Positions 269 through 13,326 of a stretch of 63,962 nucleotides of DNA are shown here, piece by piece. Both the position numbers and the translations under genes were made by a program. Position 1 is the stretch's first letter, and the number at the start of each line of letters is the position of its first letter. The DNA is from a bacterium (lineage in GTDB: Bacteria > Vulcanimicrobiota > Xenobia > Xenobiales > Xenobiaceae), in contig JAFTAM010000182.1 in the NCBI GenBank assembly GCA_017458675.1, positions 1 to 63,962 of the forward strand, in the 5' to 3' direction. The notes below the pieces were generated by a model. That model made no database searches. It saw only the letters and a list, made by a program, of their open reading frames with translations, and was not told where the DNA came from.

Positions 269-1681
269 ATGAATAACGCCCAGAACAAATATAATACCGT
301 ATTTTATATACTAGGCTTAATTGTTCTCTTAGCTCTGGTCTGCTGGCTTTTGAGCGCCGTACACATGATAGTCAATATTCTGGTAGCTTCGATTCTGATA
401 GCTTATCTGATAGCTCCGGCGGTCCACTATCTTCAGAAAAAGGGAATCTCGGCATCGGTGGCCATAGGTATCGTTTATCTGCTTTTAATAGCTCTGGCCC
501 TCGTCTTTGTTTCTTATTTATGGCCGGTACTGCAGACCGAATTCAGCCGCTTCGCTCAGAACTTCAGCAACATTTCCGCCAATCTGCACAACATGGTTCA
601 GGCCTGGCTGTTTAAGGTCCAATCCTGGCTTCCTAAATCAATGCAGCACGTCGTCGATCCGGAAAAGGTCAACATGCATAAGATGTTCATCTTTGTGCAG
701 AAAGAGACTCCGGTACTGGTCAACAATTCCATGGTCGGCGTTATCAGAGGCATGCGCAGCGTGGTCATCATCCTGACCGGCGCTATCATCGTTCCCCTGA
801 TGGTCTTCTACATTCTGATGGATACCCAGGTTTATAAAAAAAGCTTCATCAGCTGTTTGCCTAAGGCCTGGCGCAAAAACGGCGTAGACCTGCTCCGCCG
901 CGTCGATTACGTCCTGGGCAACTTCATCCGCGGCCAGCTGATCGTCTGCGTAGTGATAGGCGTCTGCGTTGCTGTAGCTCTTTCCCTTTTAGGCATAGAC
1001 TACGCGATCTTAATCGGTCTGTTCACGGGCGTCATAGACATCATACCCTATGTAGGCGTAGCTATCAGCTACGTGCCCGCCTTCATAATCGCCCTCCTCA
1101 ACAAAGGACTGCTCTTTGCTATCTTCACGGTTCTGGTTTTGTACGTCCTGCACTGGATTGAGAGCCACATTCTCGTACCGGCCATCGTCGGCAAGACCCT
1201 CAACCTGCCGCCTCTGACCGTAATGGCCGCCTTAATCGCCGGCGCCGAGCTGGGAGGCATCATGGGCATGCTTCTGGCTGTTCCCATTACCGCCATTATC
1301 AGAGTCTGCCTGGAATTTTACACCGAAAAGCACCCGGCTTACGGGCCCTTGACCGAAGAAGACATCCAGCCTCCGGATACCCCTTATCCTCCTGCGGAAA
1401 TCAGCAAGGTTTCCCCTAAAGAATCTGTAAAAACTATAGTAGATAAGGTCCAGCAGCTCAAGAATAATCATCTTCTGCGCCGCAAAGTTACAGAAAAGGA
1501 AGGCATAACTATAGTTCAGGAGATTTACGCCAAAGACTCGGCGGAAACGGCCGCTGTTTCCGATGGCGGCGACAAGGATAATGCGCCCGAGGCACCTTCA
1601 AAAGACGCCGAAAATAAATCGGAAAAAACTGCCGGCTCTGAAAAAGAATCCCAAAACGAAAAAGCGAACAAGGACAGCTGA
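269..1681 (+). CDS. AI-2E family transporter (PerM/YhhT-like)
   Basis: Multi-TM protein with family motifs IAYLIAP, GNFIRGQL, IIPYVG, ESHILVPAIVG and GGIMGMLLAVP; acidic low-complexity tail; aaagga RBS. Confidence 0.9.
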   Translation: MNNAQNKYNTVFYILGLIVLLALVCWLLSAVHMIVNILVASILIAYLIAPAVHYLQKKGISASVAIGIVYLLLIALALVFVSYLWPVLQTEFSRFAQNFSNISANLHNMVQAWLFKVQSWLPKSMQHVVDPEKVNMHKMFIFVQKETPVLVNNSMVGVIRGMRSVVIILTGAIIVPLMVFYILMDTQVYKKSFISCLPKAWRKNGVDLLRRVDYVLGNFIRGQLIVCVVIGVCVAVALSLLGIDYAILIGLFTGVIDIIPYVGVAISYVPAFIIALLNKGLLFAIFTVLVLYVLHWIESHILVPAIVGKTLNLPPLTVMAALIAGAELGGIMGMLLAVPITAIIRVCLEFYTEKHPAYGPLTEEDIQPPDTPYPPAEISKVSPKESVKTIVDKVQQLKNNHLLRRKVTEKEGITIVQEIYAKDSAETAAVSDGGDKDNAPEAPSKDAENKSEKTAGSEKESQNEKANKDS

Positions 1682-1776: not shown

Positions 1777-2340
1777 ATGCAAAAAGATTTAGGAGAGGTA
1801 ATGGGCCTCTATCCCACCCCCGTAACGGTTGTCGGAACGGTCCTGGAAAACGGCCGGGTAAATTTTCTGACCATAGCCCACGTCGGCGTTACCGAGCACA
1901 AACGCCTTTTAATCAGCGTCGACAAAGGCCACGCCCTTTCTGACGCGGCTATTGCCAAAAACGGCGTAGTGTCCGTAAGCCTGGTTAACAGAGAAATGTT
2001 GGAAGCCGTCGATTACTGCGGCATAGCCAAAGGGGCCAAGGAGGATAAATCTACCGTCTTTGCCCATCGCTTTGACGAGTTGGAAAAAGCCCCGATTATA
2101 GAGAAAGCTCCTCTCTGCATGACCTGCCGCATTATCAAAACCGTCGAGGTCGGCAGCTTCCATAATTACATACTTCAGCCGGTCCATACTTATGTGCAGG
2201 AAGAATATATAAATGAAAAAGGCAAAATAGATTACGCGTCTATGAAGCCCATACTCTTCGAGTTCCAAAATCTCAATTACCTGGAGACCGGAGCCATAGC
2301 CGGCAAGTGCTGGAATATCGGAAAAAACTACAAAAAATAA
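1777..2340 (+). CDS. Flavin reductase family protein (flavoredoxin-like)
   Basis: LYPTPVTVVG, VDYCGI..G...DK and APIIE..PL..TC motifs; aaggag RBS. Confidence 0.88.
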   Translation: MQKDLGEVMGLYPTPVTVVGTVLENGRVNFLTIAHVGVTEHKRLLISVDKGHALSDAAIAKNGVVSVSLVNREMLEAVDYCGIAKGAKEDKSTVFAHRFDELEKAPIIEKAPLCMTCRIIKTVEVGSFHNYILQPVHTYVQEEYINEKGKIDYASMKPILFEFQNLNYLETGAIAGKCWNIGKNYKK

Positions 2341-2763: not shown

Positions 2764-3576
2764 ATGAAAGCTGCCGTCATTCAAATCAACACTACTGACA
2801 ACATTGACAGAAATCTGCAGACCTGCCGCGGTCTGCTTGACAAAGCCGTTTCTGCAGGCGTAAGGCTGGCCGTACTCCCTGAAACCTTCGCCTTTTCACA
2901 CGTCAATATTCCTGCCGAAACAGCGGCGGCCAACGCCTCCGCCGCCTTTGAATGGTGCAGAAAGACGGCGCGCGCGCTTAATATTTGGCTCGCCGCCGGA
3001 AGTATTCTCTCCCCCGGACCTGACGGACGCTTTTACAACCGCGCCTTCTTTTTCAGTCCTCAGGGCGAAGTTCAGGCGAAGTATGACAAGATTCACCTCT
3101 TTGACTGCCGCCTTCCTGAAGCGCTTTACCTGGAATCGAAGGATATCATCCCGGGAGAAGAGATTGCTTCCGCCGCCTTAATTGAAAACCGGGAAGAATG
3201 GCGGCTGGGCTGGGGCGTCTGTTACGATTTGCGCTTTCCCGAGCAGTTCAGAACTCTGAGCGAACGCGGCCTCGATATTTTAATTCTCCCCGCCGCTTTT
3301 ACCGCCAAAACCGGCGCGCTGCACTGGGAAGTTCTGCTGCGGGCCCGCGCCATAGAGAATCAGTGCTATATTCTGGCCGCCAATCAAAGCGGAACTATAG
3401 GCAGCGGCTTAAAATGCTGGGGCCATTCCATGATTATTGACCCTATGGGAAATATTTGCTCCCAATTGAATTCGGGAGAAGAAAACCTGGCCGCCGCCGA
3501 TCTCGATTACAGCTCTATGCTTAAAATCAGAAGCGAGCTTCCTGCCCTTCAGCACCGGCGCTCTTTTAAAATCTGA
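2764..3576 (+). CDS. Carbon-nitrogen hydrolase (nitrilase superfamily, Nit1/Nit2-like amidase)
   Basis: Catalytic triad motifs LPE, YDKIHLFD and CYDLRFPE; HWEVLLRARAIENQ. Confidence 0.93.
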   Translation: MKAAVIQINTTDNIDRNLQTCRGLLDKAVSAGVRLAVLPETFAFSHVNIPAETAAANASAAFEWCRKTARALNIWLAAGSILSPGPDGRFYNRAFFFSPQGEVQAKYDKIHLFDCRLPEALYLESKDIIPGEEIASAALIENREEWRLGWGVCYDLRFPEQFRTLSERGLDILILPAAFTAKTGALHWEVLLRARAIENQCYILAANQSGTIGSGLKCWGHSMIIDPMGNICSQLNSGEENLAAADLDYSSMLKIRSELPALQHRRSFKI

Positions 3577-3608
3577 ACGAAAAGCTGTACTTTGCCCCCT
3601 TATTTTTG

Positions 3609-3614
3609 TATAAT
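3609..3614 (+). promoter_or_regulatory. Putative -10 box for the peptide-rSAM operon
   Basis: Perfect TATAAT ~70 nt upstream of the aaggag RBS and ATG at 3687. Confidence 0.45.
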
Positions 3615-3686
3615 ATAAGGAAGCGCCTCTTGGGTGATATTGCCGCCCCGGAGGACGGCACGTGTAAAATAAGGAGTATTTCTGTT

Positions 3687-3779
3687 ATGGCAGATACCAA
3701 AGAAATGAATCCCGTAATCGCCGCCGCTATCGGCGCCGAGCCCGAAGAAAAAGACTGCGTCTGCTGGGTTAAAGCGTGA
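3687..3779 (+). CDS. Small ORF absent from the ORF track, putative RiPP precursor MADTKEMNPVIAAAIGAEPEEKDCVCWVKA
   Basis: Strong RBS AAGGAG at 3671-3676 and ATG at 3687; the TGA stop overlaps the GTG start of the radical SAM gene (GTGA overlap); Cys/Trp-containing C-terminus. Confidence 0.8.
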   Translation: MADTKEMNPVIAAAIGAEPEEKDCVCWVKA

Positions 3780-4876
3780 TTTCCGGCAAATTAAGGCCAG
3801 TTTTTAAATTAACCGAGTCCTGCAACCTCGCCTGTAAATACTGTTATCAGGAGGGCAAGCTGGACTCCGGTTATTTTATGAGCGAGGCCACCTTAGAAAA
3901 GGCTCTTTCGGAAGTCGCTGAAAATACTCAGGGAACTATGCACCTGCTTTGGTTCGGAGGCGAGCCTACCTTATACGGTATTAAGCGCTTCGCCAGAGCC
4001 ATGGAGCTGGTTGATAAGCACTTCGCCGGCCGTACCGTCTATCACGGCATGCAGACCAACGGTTCCTTAATTACGGAAGAATGGGCCGCTCTTTTAGCGG
4101 AGCGCAAATTCGCCGTAACCGTCAGCGTTGACGGTCCTCAGGAGCTTCATGACAGACAGCGTCCGCAGCGCACCGCCGACGGCAGGCCCAAGGGCAGTTT
4201 TGAAAAGGTAATGCAGGGCATTAAAAACCTGCATAACGCCGGCATATTTCCCCGGGTTTCAGCGGTAATAACTCCGGAAGCTCTGCTTCAGCCCGTTGAG
4301 CTGGTAACTTGGTACGAGAAACAGGGCTTTCACGAAATGGATTTCGTGCCCTCCACCCGCTACCACAACGGCGGCTTCGAGGTCGAAGTAAACGGAACTC
4401 AGTTTAAGGAATTTATCTTAAAGGTCTGCGAACGCTGGCTGGAGCTTAACAATCCTAAATTTAAAGTTCGCCTGCTTTCGGAAACGGCCCGTAAATTGGC
4501 CGGGCACGCTCCCCACTACTGCAAGCTGGAGGGCCGCTGCTCTCATTTCGTAGGTTTCGGCTGGAACGGCGACGTCTATCCCTGCGACGAGTTTTCCGGA
4601 ATGAAAGAGTTCTGTTTGGGCAACATTCATAAGAACACCTTAAAAGAACTGATGACCTCTGAAAAGGCTATTGAATTTTTCCGCCGCTGGGCGGAAATAC
4701 CGCCGGAATGCGCTTCCTGCAAATGGCTCCATTTCTGCCGCGGCGGCTGTCCTTGGGAGCGTCAGCTCAGCGGAAATCCCGACCGTCCCACGGTAATGTG
4801 CGAAGCTATGAAAGCTGTTTTTGAACGCCTCAGCAGCGAGATCCCCGGCAGCAGGGAACGCTGGAAAGCTGAATAA
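3776..4876 (+). CDS. Radical SAM/SPASM domain protein (anSME-like, putative peptide maturase)
   Basis: CNLACKYC (CxxxCxxC), WFGGEP, QTNG, SVDGP; SPASM region C...C..GDVYPC and CASCKWLHFCRGGC...C. Confidence 0.93.
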   Translation: MISGKLRPVFKLTESCNLACKYCYQEGKLDSGYFMSEATLEKALSEVAENTQGTMHLLWFGGEPTLYGIKRFARAMELVDKHFAGRTVYHGMQTNGSLITEEWAALLAERKFAVTVSVDGPQELHDRQRPQRTADGRPKGSFEKVMQGIKNLHNAGIFPRVSAVITPEALLQPVELVTWYEKQGFHEMDFVPSTRYHNGGFEVEVNGTQFKEFILKVCERWLELNNPKFKVRLLSETARKLAGHAPHYCKLEGRCSHFVGFGWNGDVYPCDEFSGMKEFCLGNIHKNTLKELMTSEKAIEFFRRWAEIPPECASCKWLHFCRGGCPWERQLSGNPDRPTVMCEAMKAVFERLSSEIPGSRERWKAE

Positions 4877-4904
4877 AACGTTTTATCCGCTAATGCAGAA
4901 AATA

Positions 4905-4947
4905 AAAAATGTCCGGTCTTCATCTATGAAGACAGCGGACATTTTTT
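4905..4947. terminator. Bidirectional intrinsic terminator
   Basis: aaaaatgtccg-gtcttcat-ct-atgaagac-a-gcggacattttt between convergent genes. Confidence 0.75.
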
Positions 4948-4968
4948 ATGGATAACTATAACCGCGAT

Positions 4969-6291
4969 TTACTCTTCGGCAGCTTCAGTAACCGTAAACT
5001 CCATGCTGTCCGTAAAATTAGAGTTAGCGTCGAGAACAGCCTTCAAAACGGTGCTTCCAGCCCTTAAGCCGGTAATAAAGCCGTCTTCGGCAGAAATTAC
5101 GCCGTCTTCGCTCTCGGAAAGAGTATAAGCATACCTGTCAAGCTCATAATCGGCAGAAGAATAGCCTTTGCGGGTATAGGTACCCAAAACCCTGTAGGCA
5201 ACGCTTTCACCGACGGCGCAGGTATCAGAATCGGCGTCAATACCGATTCCGGTCAAAGTGCCGGTAACGACGGTTACCATACAGGTATCGGCGAAATTTT
5301 CTCCGCCGCAGTTTACAGAAGCGGTAATCGACACCTCGCTAGGCGCAATATCCTCTTCTGAATCGTCTGAAGAAGCCTTTTTGGGCACGATGAAACCGTA
5401 ATATCCGCTGACAATGTCGTTGTCGCCGGAGCTCCAGGTACTGTTGAGGTCGACGCAGCTGGTCTTTCCGTCGCTCCAGGAAGCCGTTACGCTGTTAATG
5501 CAATAATCGAGGCTGACAGGCAAAACCAAAGAGGTTTCATCAAAAGCCAGACCGGTAATCATGGCGTCGGTTACTTCTATATCAGCGGTATCGGAATAAT
5601 TGTAGAATCTAGCGGTAATGACGGCATTGCCTGCGGAATTTCCGTCAAACTCTTTTTTGCCTAACGTCGAGACTTCTTCGTCTCCATTTTCTTCAACATT
5701 GGAAATGACAGCGGAATTTGAGCTTGTCCACTCGCAGTTGTCCGAAAAAATCTGCAGATATTTTTTGCCGGTACCTAAAGCGGTATCAGTAAACTCGGCA
5801 ATAGTCGCCATGCTGATGCTGTCTAAGGTATGAATGCGATAATCCTTCTGCAGAATACGCAGTCTGTTCAAATTAGAAATGGCGTCAATATCTTCCCAGG
5901 CAGGATCGTTAATTTCGTAGACTTCTCCAATCTTAAGCGTCACAGGCTGAGAATAAAAGCCAATGACCTTATTGTCATTGTTGTAATAAGTCATGCTTAT
6001 TGAAACCGACTCGACCGGAACAGCCTGCAGCAGAATCTGCTGAGCCTTAACCAGATTAGCCGGGCCGAAGGTGCGATAGCCCTGCCGGTTGTAGCAGTAA
6101 TAAGACACCTTCTTAACATCGCTGCCCATGGTTCTGGCTTCAACATTATGCGTCACCAGAATAGAAGCGCGGGTTGCATCATTAAAGGCGTCGTCGTCAG
6201 AACAGGCGCTCAGAAAAGAACAGAAAGCCAATAGCAGACAGACGCACAGTACATAACTTATTTTATTAAATAACCGTCTCTTTTCAGACAC
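4969..6291 (-). CDS. Lipoprotein with Ig-like (Big_2-type) repeats
   Basis: Lipobox FLSAC; WTSSNSAV and WSSGDNDIV Big_2-like motifs; N-terminal module shared with neighbouring lipoproteins. Confidence 0.75.
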   Translation of the reverse strand: MSEKRRLFNKISYVLCVCLLLAFCSFLSACSDDDAFNDATRASILVTHNVEARTMGSDVKKVSYYCYNRQGYRTFGPANLVKAQQILLQAVPVESVSISMTYYNNDNKVIGFYSQPVTLKIGEVYEINDPAWEDIDAISNLNRLRILQKDYRIHTLDSISMATIAEFTDTALGTGKKYLQIFSDNCEWTSSNSAVISNVEENGDEEVSTLGKKEFDGNSAGNAVITARFYNYSDTADIEVTDAMITGLAFDETSLVLPVSLDYCINSVTASWSDGKTSCVDLNSTWSSGDNDIVSGYYGFIVPKKASSDDSEEDIAPSEVSITASVNCGGENFADTCMVTVVTGTLTGIGIDADSDTCAVGESVAYRVLGTYTRKGYSSADYELDRYAYTLSESEDGVISAEDGFITGLRAGSTVLKAVLDANSNFTDSMEFTVTEAAEE

Positions 6292-6396: not shown

Positions 6397-8337
6397 TTAG
6401 ACATTGGCGTCGGCATCGGCGTCAGCGTCGGCATCGGCGTCAGCGTCGGCATCGGCGTCAGCGTCGGCATCGGCGTCAGCGTCGGCATCAGCGTCAGCGT
6501 CGGCGTCGGCGTCAGCGTCAGCGTCAGCGTCGGCATCAGCGTCAGCGTCGGCATCAGCGTCGGCATCAGCGTCAGCGTCGGCATCAGCGTCAGCGTCGGC
6601 ATCAGCGTCAGCGTCGGCATCAGCATCAGCGTCGGCATCAGCATCAGCGTCGGCATCCGTATCGGTGTCATCGTCGCCCTCTTTGTTGACAAACGCCTGC
6701 ACCTTAGAGCTGGTAAAGGTTCCTGAGTTTCCATTGTAGACATAATACAAGTTGTAGAGATCGTACATCTGACTGTTGGCAGTATCTAATACAAAGATGC
6801 CGTCCTCAAAAGTAAACGAGCAGGTTCCGTAATTAACGCTGCTTACCATCGAATGCTTGGCAGTTACATTGTTGTAAATACCGAATACATCGCTCTTAAC
6901 AGCTTCTGCGCCGTCAGCGAACTTAACCAGGAAATATCCGGAAGCTTCGCCGGTATAACCGGATCTGGGCGCAACATTATAAACGGTTTGATTGGCATTT
7001 TCAGTCGCGTCGTCAATATTCATAGTCACGCTGAGCTTCGCAGAACCGGGGGCGGATTCAACCTCAACGCTGTCGCTGTATTCATTGCCCTTACTGTCTA
7101 TGGCATGAACGGTAACAGTATCGGAAGCGACAGCGGAAGTATCAAAGGCATATAAATTGTAGGCAGAGAGCGTGTTGCTGCCTCTGAAGCTGGAGGTATT
7201 TGAATGCGACCAGGATACATTATCAAAAATTTCAGCTTCAAAGCCGGGATTACCGTTGTCAGAAACATACGTTCCGACAGCTGTTAAAGGAATTTTACCT
7301 ACTAAATAATTAACGCCGGCCACGCTGACATCGTCCTGGCCAAAACTTTCCTCTACAGCGATAACATCGGCGCCTTCAGCAAGATCCTTATCATCGATGC
7401 GGACGGCTCTAAGTTCAGCGTCGGTTACATAAGCGGTAGTTCCAACCGAAGTATTGAAGACATTTACAACATTTACAGAAACGTCCTGAGCCCCGTAATA
7501 AGCGCCGTAATAATAACCTGGGGTAATCTCGTCTTCCGTCTTGTCAAAAATGAATTTAGCTGATCTGAGATAAGCGCTTTCATCGACATTATAATCGGCG
7601 AACCAGCTTAAATCCAATTCGGTAACAGTCCCGTCCGGTTTAGTGTAATCGGCGGCTGTCTTTATCCAGATATATTCGCCCTTATCAATATGGTTGGGGT
7701 ACATGCAGAGCTCGACATCGCCCATACGCGACAGGAAATCAGAATCCATGCCGGGATTGCTTACTTCAGCAACCTTATTCTGACCTTCGCTCGTCCAGTT
7801 TAAATTATCAACACCAACGGCGATAACAGTATCGGCTGCATCAAAATAATAGGCGCATACCCTGGAAGCAGCAACAGGCACTCCGGAAATGGTAACATCA
7901 AACTCGTTATCATTCTTTAAAGAGATTTTAGCTGCGTCGGCATCGGCGTCAGCGTCGGCATCGGCGTCAGCATCGGCATCGGCGTCGGCATCGGCATCGG
8001 CGTCGGCATCGGCGTCAGCATCCGCATCGGCGTCGGTATCGGTATCGGCGTCGGTATCGGCGTCGGCGTCATCGTCGCCTTCCTGAAATTCATGCTGATA
8101 AGAGCCAAATGAGACTCCGTCGCCGCTGAAGGTATATATTGCGTAAACCGCTTCCTCAGGAACAGCGGTGCGGGCAGCTATAGTTTCATAATTAAAGGTC
8201 ACGCTGCCTAAGGATACAGCAGCGGGATCGGGCTTGGTCAAGGAAGTATCGGAGCCGCATCCGGCGGCGGTTATACAAACTGCCAAAGTCAAGGCAGCGG
8301 TAACGCTCGAAAAACCAAATCGAGTTAGATTAGCCAT
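6397..8337 (-). CDS. Acidic surface lipoprotein with two (Asp-Ala)n tracts
   Basis: Start moved to ATG 8337 (gagagga RBS); lipobox TAAGC; paralogous to 8598-11039 and 11815-13326. Confidence 0.8.
6406..6680 (-). repeat. Coding hexanucleotide repeat encoding EGDDD-(DA)n, C-terminal
   Basis: gcgtcg/gcatcg/gcgtca/gcatca units on the + strand. Confidence 0.95.
7933..8082 (-). repeat. Coding hexanucleotide repeat encoding EGDDD-(DA/DT)n, internal
   Basis: Same unit types as 6406-6680 with a few DT units. Confidence 0.95.
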
Positions 8338-8520
8338 TAGAACAATCCTCTCGGGCAAAAGATTAACGCGCCGACTCAAAAACGCGAAAAAGAAATATAA
8401 CTATGTGGTTTTCCCACTTTCTCTTTAGGTTCCTTCCTGCTTTTGCTATGACTTGCCCAGTTAAGTAAACTAACCATTTCGAACTCAAGCCGGAAGATAT
8501 CTGCATAACGAATATCGCAT

Positions 8521-8597: not shown

Positions 8598-11039
8598 TTA
8601 GATGTCGCTGTCGGTATCCGTATCGGTATCGGTGTCCGTATCGGTATCGGTGTCAGTGTCCGTATCGGAATCGGTGTCGGTGTCCGTATCGGTATCGGTG
8701 TCCGTATCGGTGTCCGTATCGGTATCGGTGTCCGTGTCGGTGTCCGTATCGGTATCGGTGTCCGTGTCGGTATCAGTATCGGTATCGGTGTCCGTATCGG
8801 TATCCGTGTCCGTGTCGGTATCTGTGTCCGTATCGGTATCGGTGTCAGTGTCCGTATCGGTATCCGTATCGGTATCGGTGTCCGTGTCGGTATCGGTATC
8901 CGTGTCGGTATCGGTGTCATCGTCACCCTCGGAAGCTACGAAGGTGGTCGCAGCGGGAGTTCCGAGGCCTTCGATCTCATCGACCACGGCGGTACCAGTA
9001 CCGGTAGCGGTTTCAGCAATTTCAGCGGTGAACAGGACTACGCTGTCAGGAGCGACTTCGACGGTAGCGAAATCAGCGGGATCAACGGCGACTTCAGGAG
9101 CGGCCTCGGGCTGCAGATCCTCGGGAATCTCGAAGTAGCAAACTTTAGTATCAGTAACGAATCTGCCGACTAAGGTCAGCTCGACTTCCTGACCGGGAGT
9201 GACAGCCATCTTATCGGTGTAGCCGGCAAGACTGTCGTCGGTGATGCCCAATACGATTTCGGAACTAGCGGGCATAGCGGCGATCACGGTAGCTTCTTCG
9301 CTGTCGACTTCTTCGTAAGTAGCGGTCAGGGAGATTTCGGTCTCAGCATCGAGTCCAGCGACGGTTACAGCGCCCTTGTCAGCGGTAGCGGCGTCGTTGT
9401 CAGCGGTGATTTCGGCCTTCTCGGTGACATCCTGATCCTCGGGAACGGGGCCCTTGCCCTCTTCCTCGGTGTAGATAGCCATTACCTTATAGTTAATGGT
9501 ATTGACGGCGTAAACCTTATCGCTGTCATCATCGGAATCGGAATCAGTGTCCGTATCGGTATCGGTATCCGTGTCGGTATCGGTATCCGTGTCGGTATCG
9601 GTGTCCGTATCGGTATCGGTATCCGTGTCGGTATCGGTGTCCGTATCGGTATCGGTGTCCGTATCGGAATCGGTGTCCGTATCGGTATCGGTGTCCGTAT
9701 CAGTATCGGTGTCCGTATCAGTATCGGTGTCCGTATCAGTATCGGTGTCCGTATCGGTGTCCGTATCAGTATCGGTGTCCGTGTCGGTGTCCGTATCGGT
9801 GTCGGTGTCCGTATCAGTATCGGTGTCCGTATCGGTATCGGTGTCGCCCTCAATATCGGAATCGGTGTCGGTGTCCGTGTCGGTGTCCGTATCGGAATCG
9901 GTGTCGGTGTCCGTATCGGTGTCCGTATCAGTGTCGGTGTCCGAATCGGTATCGGTGTCCGTATCGGTATCGGTGTCCGTGTCGGTGTCGGTGTCCGTAT
10001 CGGTGTCCGTATCGGTATCGGTATCGGTGTCCGTGTCGGTATCGGTGTCCGTATCGGTGTCCGTATCGGTATCGGTATCCGTGTCGGTGTCCGTATCGGT
10101 ATCGGTGTCCGTATCGGTATCGGTGTCCGTATCAGTATCGGTGTCCGTATCGGTATCCGTGTCCGTGTCGGTATCGTCGTCACCTTCAACGGGGACAAAC
10201 TGAGCGGTCTCCTGACCCATGGCCTCATCGACCACTACCATATTGGCGGTATTCGTTTCGGCATCGAAATACTCAGCTTCCGCATCGGCGGGAGCGATAG
10301 TTACCGCACTAACATCCTGGTCGGTAACATAAACGGTATTCATGTCAGCGCTGAAGTCTTCGAAAGTAGCTTTGATCGCATCTTCAGTACCGTACTCGCC
10401 GCCCATGTAGGAACCGTCTTCCTGAGGAATCAAAACGGTCTCATCCTTGATGCCGGAGAAAGTGGCGAAAGGAGTGACGTCAACCTTGTTGCCGTCTACA
10501 TCCACCAAGAAAGCCTGGAACCTGACATAATCTTCGGGAGCGATAACATAGTTATCAGCCTCAGCCACGAAGGGGGTTTCTTCGTTCAGATCTTTGATGG
10601 AAGGATCGGCTACAACGCCGCCGTATACGCCGTTCATGGCGTACCAGGTAATCTCATCAGCGCCAATGGCAACGACTTCGTTTGCAGCGTCATAATAGAC
10701 AGCGTTGGCAGTTACAGCGGTTTCAGAAACGCCGACGACTTCGAGGTCGTACTCAGTATCCTCAGCTCCGTGCTTGAGGGCGAGAGCGTCAGTCGTAGCA
10801 ACGGAGACGCCGTCTTTGTCGACGAAATTGAATTTTACGCTGGTAATATCGGGGGTCACGTCGGAGCGAGCAGCGAGCTCAGCCAACAGGTTGTACTGGA
10901 AGACAACTTTATTCTGTCCGCCAAACAACGGATTGGGAGTAGTAGAACCGCTGTCACCGCAGCCAGTGGCCATCAAACCTAGACCTAAGCTAGCTACAGC
11001 AGCAAAAGAAGCGAAACCAAAGACATTCTTCTTAGCCAT
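8598..11039 (-). CDS. Acidic surface lipoprotein with two long (Asp-Thr)n tracts
   Basis: Lipobox MATGC; start is ATG 11039 or GTG 11054; DT tracts of ~215 aa (internal) and ~105 aa (C-terminal); non-repeat parts align with 11815-13326. Confidence 0.82.
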   Translation of the reverse strand: MAKKNVFGFASFAAVASLGLGLMATGCGDSGSTTPNPLFGGQNKVVFQYNLLAELAARSDVTPDITSVKFNFVDKDGVSVATTDALALKHGAEDTEYDLEVVGVSETAVTANAVYYDAANEVVAIGADEITWYAMNGVYGGVVADPSIKDLNEETPFVAEADNYVIAPEDYVRFQAFLVDVDGNKVDVTPFATFSGIKDETVLIPQEDGSYMGGEYGTEDAIKATFEDFSADMNTVYVTDQDVSAVTIAPADAEAEYFDAETNTANMVVVDEAMGQETAQFVPVEGDDDTDTDTDTDTDTDTDTDTDTDTDTDTDTDTDTDTDTDTDTDTDTDTDTDTDTDTDTDTDTDTDTDTDTDTDTDTDTDSDTDTDTDTDTDTDTDSDTDTDTDTDTDSDIEGDTDTDTDTDTDTDTDTDTDTDTDTDTDTDTDTDTDTDTDTDTDTDTDTDTDTDTDTDTDSDTDTDTDTDTDTDTDTDTDTDTDTDTDTDTDTDTDTDTDTDSDSDDDSDKVYAVNTINYKVMAIYTEEEGKGPVPEDQDVTEKAEITADNDAATADKGAVTVAGLDAETEISLTATYEEVDSEEATVIAAMPASSEIVLGITDDSLAGYTDKMAVTPGQEVELTLVGRFVTDTKVCYFEIPEDLQPEAAPEVAVDPADFATVEVAPDSVVLFTAEIAETATGTGTAVVDEIEGLGTPAATTFVASEGDDDTDTDTDTDTDTDTDTDTDTDTDTDTDTDTDTDTDTDTDTDTDTDTDTDTDTDTDTDTDTDTDTDTDTDTDTDTDTDTDTDTDSDTDTDTDTDTDTDTDTDTDSDI
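8601..8925 (-). repeat. Coding repeat (DT)n, C-terminal
   Basis: gtatcg/gtgtcc/gtgtcg/gtatcc hexamer units on the + strand. Confidence 0.95.
9533..10185 (-). repeat. Coding repeat (DT)n, internal, interrupted by DS units and DIEG
   Basis: ~650 nt of hexamer units. Confidence 0.95.
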
Positions 11040-11814
11040 AATGTTTATAGACACATCCTTTTATTATTCTCAAGCAGGCTAATCCTCATAATAGGAGCTT
11101 CCTGCCGCATTACATCTTGCGGAAAATTCCCTAAACGCGGGAACATCCCTGCTGAATTTTTTAAAATTTAATTCTCAAAGCCTGCATACCGCGCTAAATA
11201 CAATACACAGACAGCCGACCGTCATTCTCTTTGCCGTAAAAAAAGATCCACAAGTTTCTTTACGGTTTATTTTCCGAGGGTATCCCCGCAGCGTATGCCA
11301 GCGGAAAACCTCTGAGATAGGTTATAAGGTTATAATGACAAGATCGAGGGCCATAATTCTATGGCGCCTCTTCAACACCTTTAATATATATTCTGCCGAT
11401 TTGTTTCCTTCAAAGGCAGGAAACCGTTTATTCGGCCGCCGCCTCTAAATTACGCAAATACTTGTGGAAGCCTATAATATATGCGGCAAATTATACATTT
11501 ATTAAAGCAAATATGCAAGCCTAAAAGCCGAAAATACAGCCAATTTTTAGAAATTTTACGTATATTTGCAATAAAAAAACGCATATAGCCGACGAGTGAG
11601 CCTCTATTTACTATCCGTCTTCCCCGTCTGCCGTTCAGGCGGTCTTATATCATCCTGAGCCGGCTGAAGAGCCCTGCATACATACTATTATATATATTTG
11701 GATTCTCCGCTTCAATCAAGATGGCGAACGATAAGAGCGAGGACGGTCTCCGGCGCTTGCGGCAGCAGCGCCGCGAAGCCAGAATCAGCTTCGCGGCGAA
11801 AGACAAACAGACTT

Positions 11815-13326
11815 CTATTCAGCCGTTTTTACGCTGATATTAGTGGACAAAGCTCCCGGGAGACCGTCAATGGGAGCCAGGTCCGCAGTGCCTTCGGCAT
11901 CGCTGCTTAAACCGGTGGGAACGCTAAGTATATATTCAACCACGCTGTCCTCAGCGGCCTCAAGGCTTACGTCGGCAGAAGACAGGTCGCTGCTGAGCGT
12001 AACCGCAGCGGCAGCGGCGGGCAGCTTATCCTCGGCGATATCGACAAAATCCATAAACGTCTTCTCAGAAGAAACAGGCCAGCTGAAAATGCCCTTCAAA
12101 TAGAGCTCTGCCGTGTCGCCTGCGGCAGCGGTCACATCGAGAGTGGCGCCTTCTTCGCCTTCATAAGCCAAACCGATATTGACGGAAGGGGCGGCTACCT
12201 CAATCGTAATTTCATCCTCAAGAAGCTCAGCCTCGGCGGAGGGAATATAGGAGGCTTTTACCGCGACGTTATGGGCGTCGGCTTCGGCGTCGAAATCGGA
12301 AACCGTAACGACCGCCTTATTTTCCGAAGCGGCGACGCCGCTGGCAGTAAGGGTCAGTATCGAATCGGAGGTTACGTTCTGAGGGGCAGGAACAGGTCCT
12401 TTGCCCTTCGTATCGCTGTAAACCGCTTCGACGACAAACTCCTCTTCGTTCAGCGCATAAACTTTTTTGTCTATGGGAGAAGTTATCTCGGTCAGGCCCA
12501 AATCATTTTCTACATAAGCCAAATAAGTAAATTTGCCGGTACTCTTCTCGTTGAGTTCACCGGATACGGGAGTAATGGCAATGGACTCAATCTGCTGATC
12601 GGTGACATAAATGCCGCCTTCCAGCTCTGCGCTTAGAGCCTTGATCCCGGCAGCCATATTTGCCTTAATGCCGCTGGCGAAACCGTAATCTGCGCCTTCA
12701 TAGGCACCGCCCGCAGCTTCCTTTAAAATTGAAGGATCAATTCCGCTGATCGTGGCGAAAGGCGTCACATTTACGCTCTCCTGAGAATTTTCGGGAACCA
12801 GAAACGCAGCGATATTGACTTTTTCTTTAGGAGCAATAACCGTTCTGTCGGCTTCCACCGTAAAGACACAGTCGCCCAGTTCATTTACTTCGGGGGAAGA
12901 AACGATGCCGACGGAGCTGCCGCTGCTTTCGCTCCAGGTTATCTTATCCACGCCGGCTGCGATAATATTGCCGCTCACATCATAATATACGGCATTGGCT
13001 ACCGCAGCGTCTACGCCTACCCCGGGAACCGTAACGGTAATGTCTTCGGCAGCTTCGCCGTGAGAGATCGAATATTTATCGGAAACCGTCACCTGAGCGC
13101 CGCTGGGATCGGTAAAATTATATCTGACGGCGGCGATTTCAGCCTTCAGATCGGTACGGGCAGCGGAAGAAGCTAAAGAAGTATATTTAAACTGAACATA
13201 GGAGCTGCCGGCGATAGAGCTTGCGCTCGTAGAACCGCTGCTGTTGCCGCATCCGGTTACTAGCAGACTGCAGCCTGCGGCAGCCGCAAAAGCGACAAAA
13301 CCAAAAAGATTCTTTTTGATCATCAT
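11815..13326 (-). CDS. Lipoprotein, repeat-free paralogue of the DT/DA proteins
   Basis: Lipobox LVTGC; motifs AVYYD, VTPFAT.SGI, YVTDQ and KGKGPVP..Q.VT shared with 8598-11039. Confidence 0.8.
   Translation of the reverse strand: MMIKKNLFGFVAFAAAAGCSLLVTGCGNSSGSTSASSIAGSSYVQFKYTSLASSAARTDLKAEIAAVRYNFTDPSGAQVTVSDKYSISHGEAAEDITVTVPGVGVDAAVANAVYYDVSGNIIAAGVDKITWSESSGSSVGIVSSPEVNELGDCVFTVEADRTVIAPKEKVNIAAFLVPENSQESVNVTPFATISGIDPSILKEAAGGAYEGADYGFASGIKANMAAGIKALSAELEGGIYVTDQQIESIAITPVSGELNEKSTGKFTYLAYVENDLGLTEITSPIDKKVYALNEEEFVVEAVYSDTKGKGPVPAPQNVTSDSILTLTASGVAASENKAVVTVSDFDAEADAHNVAVKASYIPSAEAELLEDEITIEVAAPSVNIGLAYEGEEGATLDVTAAAGDTAELYLKGIFSWPVSSEKTFMDFVDIAEDKLPAAAAAVTLSSDLSSADVSLEAAEDSVVEYILSVPTGLSSDAEGTADLAPIDGLPGALSTNISVKTAE

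What the first reader, a model, noticed from the sequence alone, without database searches (positions are those of the whole stretch)
3687..4876. Candidate RiPP system: hidden 30-aa 'CVCWVKA' peptide coupled to a radical SAM/SPASM enzyme
Seen: an ORF missed by the track (MADTKEMNPVIAAAIGAEPEEKDCVCWVKA) with an AAGGAG RBS, an upstream TATAAT and a GTGA stop/start overlap with a 366-aa rSAM/SPASM gene. A terminator closes this two-gene unit. Known: SPASM rSAMs next to short peptides make thioether crosslinks (sactipeptides, ranthipeptides) or aromatic-to-aliphatic crosslinks on three-residue motifs (triceptides; the W-x-K ring of darobactin). Inference: the C-terminal core offers both a C-x-C and a W-V-K motif, so Cys thioethers, a Trp-Lys cyclophane or a Cys-Trp link are all plausible. 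The enzyme has no room for an N-terminal RRE, no protease or exporter is adjacent, and there is no sulfatase in the window for an anSME role. I do not recognise this precursor family.
Basis: partly seen in the sequence, partly recalled or inferred. Interest (0 to 1): 0.85.

Follow-up and report, generated by a model that had tools for sequence, protein, structure and literature searches.

The report
New Trp-x-Lys peptide with radical-SAM maturase
A real, unannotated 30-residue peptide gene is translationally coupled to a radical SAM enzyme, and this pair is conserved through an uncultured gut and environmental bacterial class, most likely making a small ring-closed (Trp-to-Lys cross-linked) peptide of a known general kind but from a family not yet described.

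Summary
Window 3687-3779 encodes MADTKEMNPVIAAAIGAEPEEKDCVCWVKA, with AAGGAG 10 nt upstream. Its stop overlaps (GTGA) the start of a 366-aa rSAM/SPASM gene (3776-4876), and a strong hairpin terminator follows.

The peptide is real. It lies upstream of 21 of 26 orthologous enzyme genes in class Xenobia (Vulcanimicrobiota). Variable sites fall 6/2/19 by codon position. A profile search found 15 more short proteins ending the same way.

Across 25 distinct precursors only Trp27 and Lys29 are invariant, apart from the start Met, and the last residue is always A or G. The two Cys are replaced by S, T, A, P or E elsewhere. Thioether and Cys-Trp chemistry are therefore not family-defining; a Trp-Lys cross-link on W-x-K is favoured.

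The enzyme clade is separate from true anSMEs, which sit beside sulfatases, and passes no NCBIfam cut-off. Its model matches anSMEcpe (TM 0.86) and the triceptide synthase ChlB (0.84) about equally. A complex model scores 0.82 against 0.02 for the best control.

No conserved protease or exporter was found, and the genome holds no FGly-type sulfatase.

Verdict: an undescribed family of a known kind of cyclophane RiPP; the chemistry is inferred, not shown.

The parts
3586..3636 (+). Conserved upstream block holding a -10-like TATAAT (3609-3614); putative promoter
   Evidence: Sequence read. The block is nearly identical to a 93%-identical relative (L119), while the following 5' UTR diverges. The consensus promoter scan found none, so this is inferred.
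3671..3676 (+). Shine-Dalgarno AAGGAG, 10 nt before the peptide ATG
   Evidence: A GGAG-type site 5-10 nt upstream of the start recurs in most genera; the starts in L101, L102 and L103 have none or a weak one.
3687..3779 (+). Precursor peptide gene, 30 aa + stop: a leader with a conserved [N/H]-P-x-[L/I]-A helix motif (residues 8-12) and a C-terminal core ending C-W-V-K-A
   Evidence: Trp27 = 3765-3767 and Lys29 = 3771-3773. These are the only invariant residues in 25 precursors apart from Met1.
3776..3779 (+). GTGA stop/start overlap (translational coupling)
   Evidence: The overlap is kept as GTGA in g4, g3 and g13 and as ATGA in g5.
3776..4876 (+). rSAM/SPASM maturase, 366 aa, no RRE. CxxxCxxC at residues 16-23; eight further invariant Cys (249, 255, 270, 312, 315, 321, 325, 342)
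4902..4949 (.). Bidirectional intrinsic terminator hairpin (A run, stem, U run) between the convergent rSAM gene and the gene at 4969-6291 (-)
   Evidence: dG -29.8, z -6.35. Rfam gives only sub-threshold generic stem-loop hits.
269..1681 (+). AI-2E family transporter; weak candidate exporter, syntenic only in genera g1 and g4
   Evidence: It was not found beside the cassette in g3, g5, g6, g8 or g13.

Best explanation
This is a minimal two-gene RiPP-type cassette. One transcript, probably starting downstream of the TATAAT at 3609-3614 and ending at the hairpin near 4902-4949, carries a 30-aa precursor and, translationally coupled by a GTGA overlap, an RRE-less rSAM/SPASM enzyme with three [4Fe-4S] sites.

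The enzyme is predicted to hold the leader's short helix (N8-I15) in a groove formed by residues 221-244 and the C-terminal helix (352-356). It is predicted to thread the C-terminal core (residues 21-30) into the barrel, next to SAM and the first auxiliary cluster.

The inferred reaction runs as follows. The 5'-deoxyadenosyl radical abstracts a side-chain hydrogen of Lys29, most likely at C-beta as in triceptides and in darobactin's Trp-Lys ring. The carbon radical adds to the indole of Trp27. An auxiliary cluster takes the electron on rearomatisation. The net result is a -2 Da three-residue W-V-K cyclophane, one residue from the free C-terminus.

Shown: the gene pair, its conservation, its coding signature, and the invariance of W and K.
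Inferred: binding (model only), the cross-link itself, its exact atoms, leader removal, export, and biological role.
For: 1. The ORF and its signals are as described.

2. The peptide is conserved with the enzyme.
- It lies upstream of 21 of the 26 places with E<=1e-60 in 23 of 301 genomes of the phylum.
- It lies upstream of 5 of 5 further loci that have upstream sequence: L021, L115-L117, L119.
- Enzyme identity across these loci runs from 93% down to 39%.

3. Coding signature. Variable sites fall 6/2/19 by codon position, and 0/0/3 in the last 8 codons.

4. A profile of 12 precursors found 20 proteins at E<=0.001 among 1.84 billion. Fifteen are 30-73 aa and end in W-[VF]-K-[AG].

5. In 25 distinct precursors only M1, W27 and K29 are invariant, and the last residue is A or G in all 25.

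6. Complex model.
- Score 0.82, best of 3 controls 0.02.
- The mark was reached by 58 of 80 solved complexes and 2 of 110 mismatched pairs.
- Runs agree in at least 89% of contacts; partner pLDDT at least 68.
- The counts hold only roughly, because my own alignments and riding ligands were used.
- Leader residues 8-15 touch enzyme residues 221-244 and 352-356. The core touches barrel residues and C270, D271 and C325.

7. Enzyme fold and family.
- All 19 Xenobia enzymes form one clade apart from 23 anSME-like sequences (SH-aLRT 100, quick tree).
- The AF2 model (pLDDT 91.8) matches anSMEcpe at TM 0.86 and the triceptide synthase ChlB, solved with its leader, at TM 0.84.
- The best RiPP-maturase HMM is DynA at 209 bits.

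8. Precedent from papers.
- Triceptides are defined by aromatic-to-C-beta links on aromatic-X-X motifs, and HtkB links His-x-Lys (PMC11499958, sections 4-5 read).
- Xenorceptide A2 has a WSK cyclophane (bioRxiv 10.1101/2024.12.16.628070, passages).
- DarE resembles anSME more than any other known enzyme yet makes a Trp-Lys ring (PMC10288494, passages).

9. Weak transcription hint. RNA-library contigs from two sheep-gut runs (X8, X9) run from 47-48 nt upstream of the ATG, across the peptide, into the rSAM gene (to 4000 and 4052) at 90-95% identity. Contigs in an RNA library do not prove transcription.
Against: - No chemistry was measured. The complex tool gives no coordinates, so I could not see which core atom lies next to SAM.
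- By sequence the enzyme scores higher against anSME (243 bits) than against any cyclophane synthase model. It passes no cut-off of DynA, DarE, XyeB, GrrM, FxsB, YhhB or AmcB.
[quoted passage not shown] C-beta is therefore a guess.
- Invariance of W and K could reflect target binding or enzyme recognition rather than the bond-forming atoms.
- The complex pass may lean on solved relatives (anSMEcpe-peptide 4K38/4K39; ChlB-leader 9GM3).
- No protease or exporter is conserved with the cassette, so maturation beyond the cross-link is unexplained.
- One orthologue (L015) shows no peptide in the 212 nt before its contig end. Three paralogues (L104-L106) have none.
Confidence: 0.6

Rival explanations
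1. anSME-type chemistry on the peptide. The enzyme abstracts the C-beta hydrogen of the residue before Trp (Cys26, and perhaps Cys24) and oxidises it to a formylglycine or oxo group. That group may then condense with Lys or Trp.
For: - anSME is the best HMM and the best PDB match: 243 bits, E 3e-41 over the full length, TM 0.86.
- The Asp that follows an auxiliary-cluster Cys is kept. Query D271 (invariant) aligns with the Asp of anSMEcpe's Y-P-C-D motif in the pairwise alignment.
- In the first 12 precursors the two positions changed together, C/C to S/S to T/T. That matches the Cys/Ser tolerance of anSMEs, which I recall rather than tested.
Against: - In the wider set the residue before Trp is also Pro (P0138) or Ala (P0140, P0141). 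The one three before is Glu (L103) or Pro (P0140).
- Neither position is therefore required, and there is no C/S-x-P/A-x-R motif.
- The family falls below the anSME cut-off (243 vs 349.45) in all 20 members scanned (best E-value 1.2e-74, about 250 bits).
- It forms its own clade.
Confidence: 0.1
2. A Trp-Lys (or other) cross-link of a topology not yet described, or a modification of Trp or Lys alone, made by this separate enzyme clade.
For: - The enzyme clade is distinct from all curated families.
- Different rSAM families give at least three Trp-to-basic-residue connectivities (PMC11851443, passages).
- The core always ends exactly one small residue after Lys. I did not see that arrangement in the triceptide papers read.
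Against: Nothing positive points to a new topology. The closest RiPP maturases by HMM (DynA, AmcB, DarW, YhhB) and by fold (ChlB) make aromatic-to-C-beta links.
Confidence: 0.17
3. A sactipeptide- or ranthipeptide-type Cys thioether, or a Cys-Trp link, as the first reader also allowed.
For: - Two Cys lie in the window's core.
- PapB (141 bits) and SCIFF-type models give weak hits.
Against: - Both positions are Cys in 5 of 25 distinct precursors; two more (P0133, P0139) carry Cys at one position only. S, T, A, P or E occupy them in the rest, yet the enzyme is retained.
- The thioether maturase models score far below their cut-offs.
Confidence: 0.03
4. The enzyme is the genome's sulfatase maturase and the small ORF is a chance frame.
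For: Some sources name distant homologues 'anaerobic sulfatase maturase'.
Against: - The ORF is conserved with a coding signature.
- The genome's only PF00884 hit is a membrane EptA/LtaS-like protein without a C/S-x-P/A-x-R motif.
- Nothing in the genome passes TIGR03942.
- None of 20 flanking proteins tested around the cassette is a sulfatase.
- By contrast, 5 of 6 tested neighbours of the outgroup anSME-like genes are sulfatases.
Confidence: 0.02

Closest known systems
Triceptides / three-residue cyclophane-forming enzymes (XyeB/XncB, GrrM/OscB, FxsB, YhhB, HtkB, ChlB)
   Same: - An RRE-less rSAM/SPASM enzyme of about 360-385 aa beside a short precursor.
- A conserved aromatic-X-X motif, here W-x-K. 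HtkB links His-x-Lys, and xenorceptide A2 has a WSK ring.
- The fold matches ChlB at TM 0.84 over the full length.
   Different: - It passes none of the NCBIfam cyclophane models (87-145 bits against cut-offs of 310-450).
- It has a single motif at the extreme C-terminus with exactly one A or G after it.
- No protease or transporter genes are conserved with it.
- The family was found only in class Xenobia.
- The chemistry is untested.
Dynobactin and darobactin maturases (DynA/DynB, DarE)
   Same: - anSME-like SPASM enzymes that make aromatic-to-C-beta rings.
- DynA is the best RiPP-maturase HMM (209 bits).
- Darobactin's second ring is a Trp-Lys C-C link on W-x-K (PMC9055067, abstract from the search listing).
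   Different: - DynA 209 bits vs cut-off 450; DarE 113 bits vs cut-off 650.
- No second ring motif (W-x-W, or H-x-Y) in the core.
- No ABC transporter genes.
- The producers are not Gammaproteobacteria.
Anaerobic sulfatase-maturating enzyme (anSMEcpe, PDB 4K36-4K39)
   Same: - Co-linear over 338 residues, E 3e-41.
- TM 0.86.
- Same three-cluster Cys pattern, and the Asp after the auxiliary-cluster Cys (query D271) is kept in the pairwise alignment.
   Different: - Below the family cut-off (243 vs 349.45).
- A separate clade.
- A peptide partner instead of a sulfatase, with no FGly-type sulfatase in the genome.
WgkB and WprB (W-G-K and W-P-R cross-linkers) and StrB/SuiB (Lys-Trp streptide)
   Same: rSAM enzymes that join Trp to a basic residue two positions away (WgkB, WprB) or four positions away (StrB).
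   Different: - Those enzymes need an RRE or a chaperone, and WprB has a twitch domain lacking the first auxiliary cluster (PMC11851443, passages).
- SuiB matches the model only at TM 0.65 and was not among the phmmer hits at E<=1e-5.

Membership tests
Triceptide (3-CyFE) system | rSAM enzyme with SPASM domain and two auxiliary clusters, without an RRE | tested here: met
   - Pfam Radical_SAM + SPASM.
- Invariant Cys16/20/23 plus eight further Cys.
- The alignment to anSMEcpe starts at residue 13.
Triceptide (3-CyFE) system | Adjacent precursor with a conserved aromatic-X-X motif | tested here: met
   W-x-K is invariant in 25 of 25 distinct precursors. The precursor is adjacent in 21 of 26 orthologous places.
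Triceptide (3-CyFE) system | Aromatic carbon to C-beta cross-link (-2 Da) on the motif | not testable with these tools
   Needs co-expression, MS/MS and NMR.
Triceptide (3-CyFE) system | Enzyme scores above the cut-off of a curated cyclophane-maturase model (XyeB, GrrM/OscB, FxsB, YhhB, AmcB) | tested here: not met
   87, 119, 106, 136 and 145 bits against cut-offs of 450, 310, 370, 445 and 425. The same ranking holds for all 20 members scanned.
Dynobactin/darobactin (daropeptide) system | Enzyme passes the DynA or DarE model; core with two ring motifs | tested here: not met
   DynA 209 vs 450 and DarE 113 vs 650. The core holds only one aromatic residue.
Anaerobic sulfatase-maturating enzyme | Passes TIGR03942 | tested here: not met
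   243 bits against a cut-off of 349.45.
Anaerobic sulfatase-maturating enzyme | A sulfatase substrate with a C/S-x-P/A-x-R motif in the genome or next door | tested here: not met
   - There is one PF00884 hit in the 90%-complete genome. It is membrane-bound and lacks the motif.
- None of 20 neighbours tested is a sulfatase.
Sactipeptide / ranthipeptide | Conserved donor Cys in the core; RRE on or beside the enzyme | tested here: not met
   Cys is replaced by S, T, A, P or E in most precursors. There is no N-terminal extension.
Peptide-derived cofactor systems (PQQ, mycofactocin) | Accessory genes (PqqB/C/D, or MftB/D/E/F) beside the precursor and the rSAM | tested here: not met
   No conserved neighbour across genera. 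The feature list itself is recalled, not taken from a call.

The most novel reading that the evidence does not exclude
The cassette is not a strain-variable antibiotic. It is an old, vertically inherited trait of class Xenobia that turns the C-terminal W-x-K-[A/G] into a peptide-derived small molecule, either a cofactor or a signal. This would be analogous in logic to PQQ or mycofactocin, possibly with a Trp-Lys connectivity not yet described.

Points in favour:
- The enzyme tree follows taxonomy.
- The cassette is present in 10 of 10 and 4 of 4 genomes of two genera.
- There is one precursor copy per genome.
- Only two residues of the peptide are invariant.
- No export, immunity or protease genes travel with it.
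Probability: 0.15. Interest if true: 0.8.

Novelty: new member of a known kind. Interest (0 to 1): 0.45.

Why it matters
- It adds a precursor family and an enzyme clade to the rSAM cyclophane RiPPs, from a phylum with almost no cultured members. Gene callers mostly miss the 30-aa gene.
- The family is a clean test case. It has two genes, a single motif and natural Cys/Ser/Thr/Ala/Pro variants beside an invariant W-x-K, so one co-expression experiment would fix the chemistry.
- It shows where the boundary between sulfatase maturases and peptide cross-linkers lies in sequence space, which matters for automatic annotation. Some sources label distant homologues 'anaerobic sulfatase maturase'.
- Darobactin-type W-x-K rings are of interest as BamA binders. 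Whether this product has any such activity is unknown.

Tried and rejected
- **Promoter scan.** No sigma-70 site was found, so the TATAAT remains a hexamer only.
- **Terminator scan.** It missed the real hairpin and reported one inside the gene (3858-3872), which I disregard.
- **5' UTR fold, 3620-3700.** z -0.77, no significant structure.
- **Rfam.** No riboswitch or leader; only sub-threshold stem-loop hits on the terminator.
- **Genome-collection scan with the enzyme alignment.** The result was swamped by anSME-like genes. Only 1 of the 80 loci kept (L021) was an orthologue.
- **Metagenome scan.** It gave 20 loci, of which 5 were close relatives.
- **Second precursor copy in the genome.** There were 15 six-frame hits to [CST]-W-x-K-[AGS]-stop. 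None but the window's has the leader motif.
- **Conserved neighbours.** None is shared beyond the two sister genera. In the high-GC genomes my greedy ORF filter also picked antisense frames, so that synteny table is rough.
- **RNA runs.** X20 covers only 3400-3455. X8 and X9 cover nothing beyond 4000 and 4052. Uncovered parts say nothing.
- **Tree.** The careful tree search did not finish in 300 s, so the quick tree is what I cite. L119 and L099 (partial sequences) were left out. The 23 outgroup rows were hand-picked by me for taxonomic spread: 21 of the 80 loci plus L120 and L122.
- **Long proteins among the 20 profile hits (P0123, P0130, P0131, P0132, P0142).** In three of them the motif-like stretches lie inside repeats or mid-protein. 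For P0130 and P0131 my check printed nothing. All five were dropped as not family members.
- **ChlB structure paper.** It was not found in the library, so the leader-binding mode of ChlB could not be compared.
- **Supplements.** They are closed. The triceptide and rSAM-RiPP networks, and the core BGC lists of marine Eremiobacterota (PMC9259500), may already contain this family; I could not check.
- **Print status.** 'Not in print' rests on searches of main texts only.
Full report
**What is in the sequence**

- ATG at 3687, preceded by AAGGAG at 3671-3676.
- A 30-codon frame giving MADTKEMNPVIAAAIGAEPEEKDCVCWVKA.
- Stop TGA at 3777-3779, overlapped by GTG at 3776. This GTG opens a 366-aa frame ending at 4876.

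That protein carries Radical_SAM, SPASM and Fer4_12 domains. Its CxxxCxxC lies at residues 16-23, which leaves no room for an N-terminal RRE.

Downstream, 4877-4955 folds into a long hairpin (about 4902-4949) flanked by an A run and a U run. The fold has dG -29.8 kcal/mol and z -6.35, and 0 of 200 shuffles did as well. It lies between convergent genes and looks like a bidirectional terminator.

The consensus promoter scan found nothing. The TATAAT at 3609-3614 does sit in a block that is almost identical in a 93%-identical relative, whereas the 5' UTR behind it has diverged. Rfam finds no known RNA element, and the UTR does not fold better than shuffles.

**Is the small ORF a gene?**

The enzyme has clear orthologues in relatives. 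A scan of 301 genomes of the phylum gave 26 places at E<=1e-60 in 23 genomes. All lie in one class: families f1 15/18, f2 4/5, f3 1/16 and f4 2/3, against 0 of 258 in the other families. One named record places the group in Candidatus Bruticola, class Xenobia, phylum Vulcanimicrobiota.

I translated the upstream DNA of every place.
- A short ORF ending W-x-K-[A/G]-stop, with a [N/H]-P-x-[L/I]-A leader motif, is present in 21 of 26.
- The five without it are:
  - L018, where the contig starts inside the gene;
  - L015, where only about 212 nt are present before the contig end and show no peptide;
  - L104-L106, second copies of the enzyme in genus g6.
- Five further loci from other collections that have upstream sequence all carry it (L021, L115-L117, L119).
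- The stop/start overlap is kept as GTGA or ATGA in most genera, and a GGAG-type ribosome-binding site precedes most starts.

Over 12 loci of the two closest genera, variable sites fall 6/2/19 on codon positions 1/2/3. In the last eight codons they fall 0/0/3. This is the pattern of a translated gene under purifying selection.

The genome holds only this one copy.

A profile of 12 precursors, searched against 1.84 billion representative proteins, gave 20 hits at E<=0.001.
- Fifteen are proteins of 30-73 aa that end in W-[VF]-K-[AG].
- The other five are long proteins. Three match through internal repeats or a mid-protein stretch; for two my check printed nothing. I dropped all five.

**What is conserved in the peptide**

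I aligned 25 distinct precursors.
- Only the start Met, Trp27 and Lys29 are invariant.
- The final residue is always Ala or Gly, and always exactly one residue after Lys.
- The residue between W and K is V, F or A.
- The two Cys of the window's core are not conserved. The position before Trp is C, S, T, P or A, and the position three before it is C, S, T, E or P.
- Asp23 is common but not universal.
- The leader keeps a short hydrophobic stretch, [N/H]-[P/A]-x-[L/I]-[A/L]-A.

Thioether or Cys-Trp chemistry cannot define the family, whereas W-x-K can.

**What the enzyme is**

No NCBIfam model passes its cut-off.
- anSME TIGR03942: 243 bits against 349.45.
- DynA: 209 against 450.
- AmcB 145, PapB 141, DarW 140, YhhB 136, DarE 113 and XyeB 87, all far below their cut-offs.
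- The same ranking holds for 20 family members.

By sequence, the nearest solved structure is anSMEcpe (E 3e-41, co-linear over 338 residues). ChlB and CteB follow at about 1e-14.

An AlphaFold2 model (mean pLDDT 91.8) matches anSMEcpe at TM 0.86. It matches ChlB, solved with the leader of its precursor, at TM 0.84. CteB scores 0.74 and SuiB 0.65. ChlB is described as a triceptide synthase in PMC11499958.

All eleven cluster-ligand Cys positions are invariant in the family.

In a quick maximum-likelihood tree, the 19 Xenobia enzymes form one clade separated from 23 anSME-like sequences by a fully supported long branch (SH-aLRT 100). Inside the clade the branching follows taxonomy, and the peptide-less g6 paralogues nest within g6. 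The careful search did not finish.

**Not a sulfatase maturase**
- The genome (90% complete) has one PF00884 hit. It is a membrane protein of the EptA/LtaS type with no C/S-x-P/A-x-R motif.
- Nothing in the genome passes TIGR03942.
- None of the 20 flanking proteins tested around the cassette in six genera is a sulfatase.
- By contrast, 5 of 6 tested neighbours of outgroup anSME-like genes are sulfatases.

**Binding model**

I folded the enzyme alignment with the peptide alignment, SAM and three 4Fe-4S clusters.
- Score 0.82, best of 3 controls 0.02.
- The mark was reached by 58 of 80 solved complexes and 2 of 110 mismatched pairs.
- Runs agree in at least 89% of contacts, and the partner's pLDDT is at least 68.
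- The calibration held no ligands and did not use my own alignments, so the counts apply only roughly.
- Solved relatives with bound peptides exist (4K38/4K39, 9GM3), so part of the pass may be memory.

The model puts leader residues 8-15 against enzyme residues 221-244 and 352-356. It puts the core, residues 21-30, against the barrel strands and C270, D271 and C325. No coordinates are given, so the atom nearest to SAM is unknown.

**Expression**

Contigs from two sheep-gut RNA libraries (X8, X9) match 3687-4000 and 3687-4052 at 90-95% identity. Each carries 47-48 further bases upstream that agree with the 5' UTR of the L119-type relative. They therefore bridge the peptide/enzyme junction. DNA can be present in such libraries, so this is a weak hint of one transcript.

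A goat-gut DNA run covers the whole stretch.

**Mechanism proposed**

By analogy with triceptides, darobactin's Trp-Lys ring and the xenorceptide WSK ring, I propose the following steps.
1. Hydrogen abstraction from the Lys29 side chain, with C-beta most likely.
2. Addition of the carbon radical to the Trp27 indole.
3. Oxidation through an auxiliary cluster, giving a -2 Da W-V-K cyclophane.

The supporting papers are PMC11499958 (sections 4-5), PMC9055067 (abstract in the search listing), bioRxiv 10.1101/2024.12.16.628070 (passages) and PMC10288494 (passages). [quoted passage not shown]

Other connectivities are known for W-x-K/R in other enzyme families (PMC11851443, passages), so the exact atoms are open.

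**Surroundings and role**

Only the two genes travel together. The neighbours differ between genera:
- an AI-2E transporter upstream in g1 and g4;
- exonuclease VII in g6;
- an MFS protein in g13;
- a methyltransferase and two more rSAM/SPASM genes in g8;
- Rex-like and NuoE-like genes in g5.

PMC12912966 (passages) states that characterised triceptides are cleaved before the first ring motif. No protease is encoded here.

The vertical pattern and the constant single copy leave room for a housekeeping or signalling role, which I give as the novel case.

**Novelty**

Pfam and NCBIfam have no model for the peptide. Seven main-text literature searches found no description. Supplements were closed, so large published networks may already list it.

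Noticed in passing
L104:547-1302 (+) and L106:657-1406 (+); enzyme paralogues start near 1495 in both loci: In genus g6, a second, peptide-less copy of the enzyme (about 44% identical to the window's) lies directly downstream of a secreted-looking FGE-sulfatase-domain protein (PF03781, E 9e-49 and 2e-46) in 2 of 3 loci. In L104 that protein follows the C-terminal end of an AcrB-type transporter. An anSME-like rSAM beside an aerobic-type formylglycine-enzyme domain is an odd pairing.
   Followed up: partly
L112:9574-10608 (-) and 10605-11582 (-), with L112:8827-9561 (-): In genus g8 the cassette is followed, on the opposite strand, by a methyltransferase and two tandem ORFs of one family. The one scanned (9574-10608) is rSAM/SPASM; the other (10605-11582) was only clustered with it by BLAST. 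This may be a larger peptide-modification locus.
   Followed up: no
window 4969-6291 (-), 6397-8379 (-), 8598-11054 (-), 11815-13326 (-): Four large convergent or downstream genes have no Pfam or NCBIfam family, apart from one weak sub-threshold TrAA12-like hit. They are syntenic with the cassette in the sister genus; two of them (8598-11054 and 11815-13326) are paralogues of each other.
   Followed up: partly
window 1777-2340 (+) and 2764-3576 (+): A flavin reductase and a CN-hydrolase (deaminated-glutathione-amidase-like, below cut-off) are inserted between the AI-2E transporter and the peptide in this genome. They are absent in the two Bruticola loci compared (L107, L114), although L011 (g4) shows a CN-hydrolase-like C-terminus just upstream of its peptide.
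   Followed up: partly
G000 contig C185:22043-24633 (-) and C22:2645-3688 (-): The genome holds three further SPASM-type rSAM genes. Two are tandem with open frames of 516-528 aa, long enough for N-terminal RRE-type extensions. These may be other peptide-maturase loci.
   Followed up: no
L012-L014 (genus g5), upstream of the aligned enzyme start: The g5 enzymes appear to start at an ATG overlapping the peptide stop (ATGA). They carry a proline-rich, low-complexity N-terminal extension of about 35-37 aa that is absent in the other genera.
   Followed up: partly
P0018: One family member at 48% identity is labelled Candidatus Nitrosotenuis (an archaeon) on a 3.4-kb contig. This is probably a binning error rather than a transfer.
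   Followed up: no
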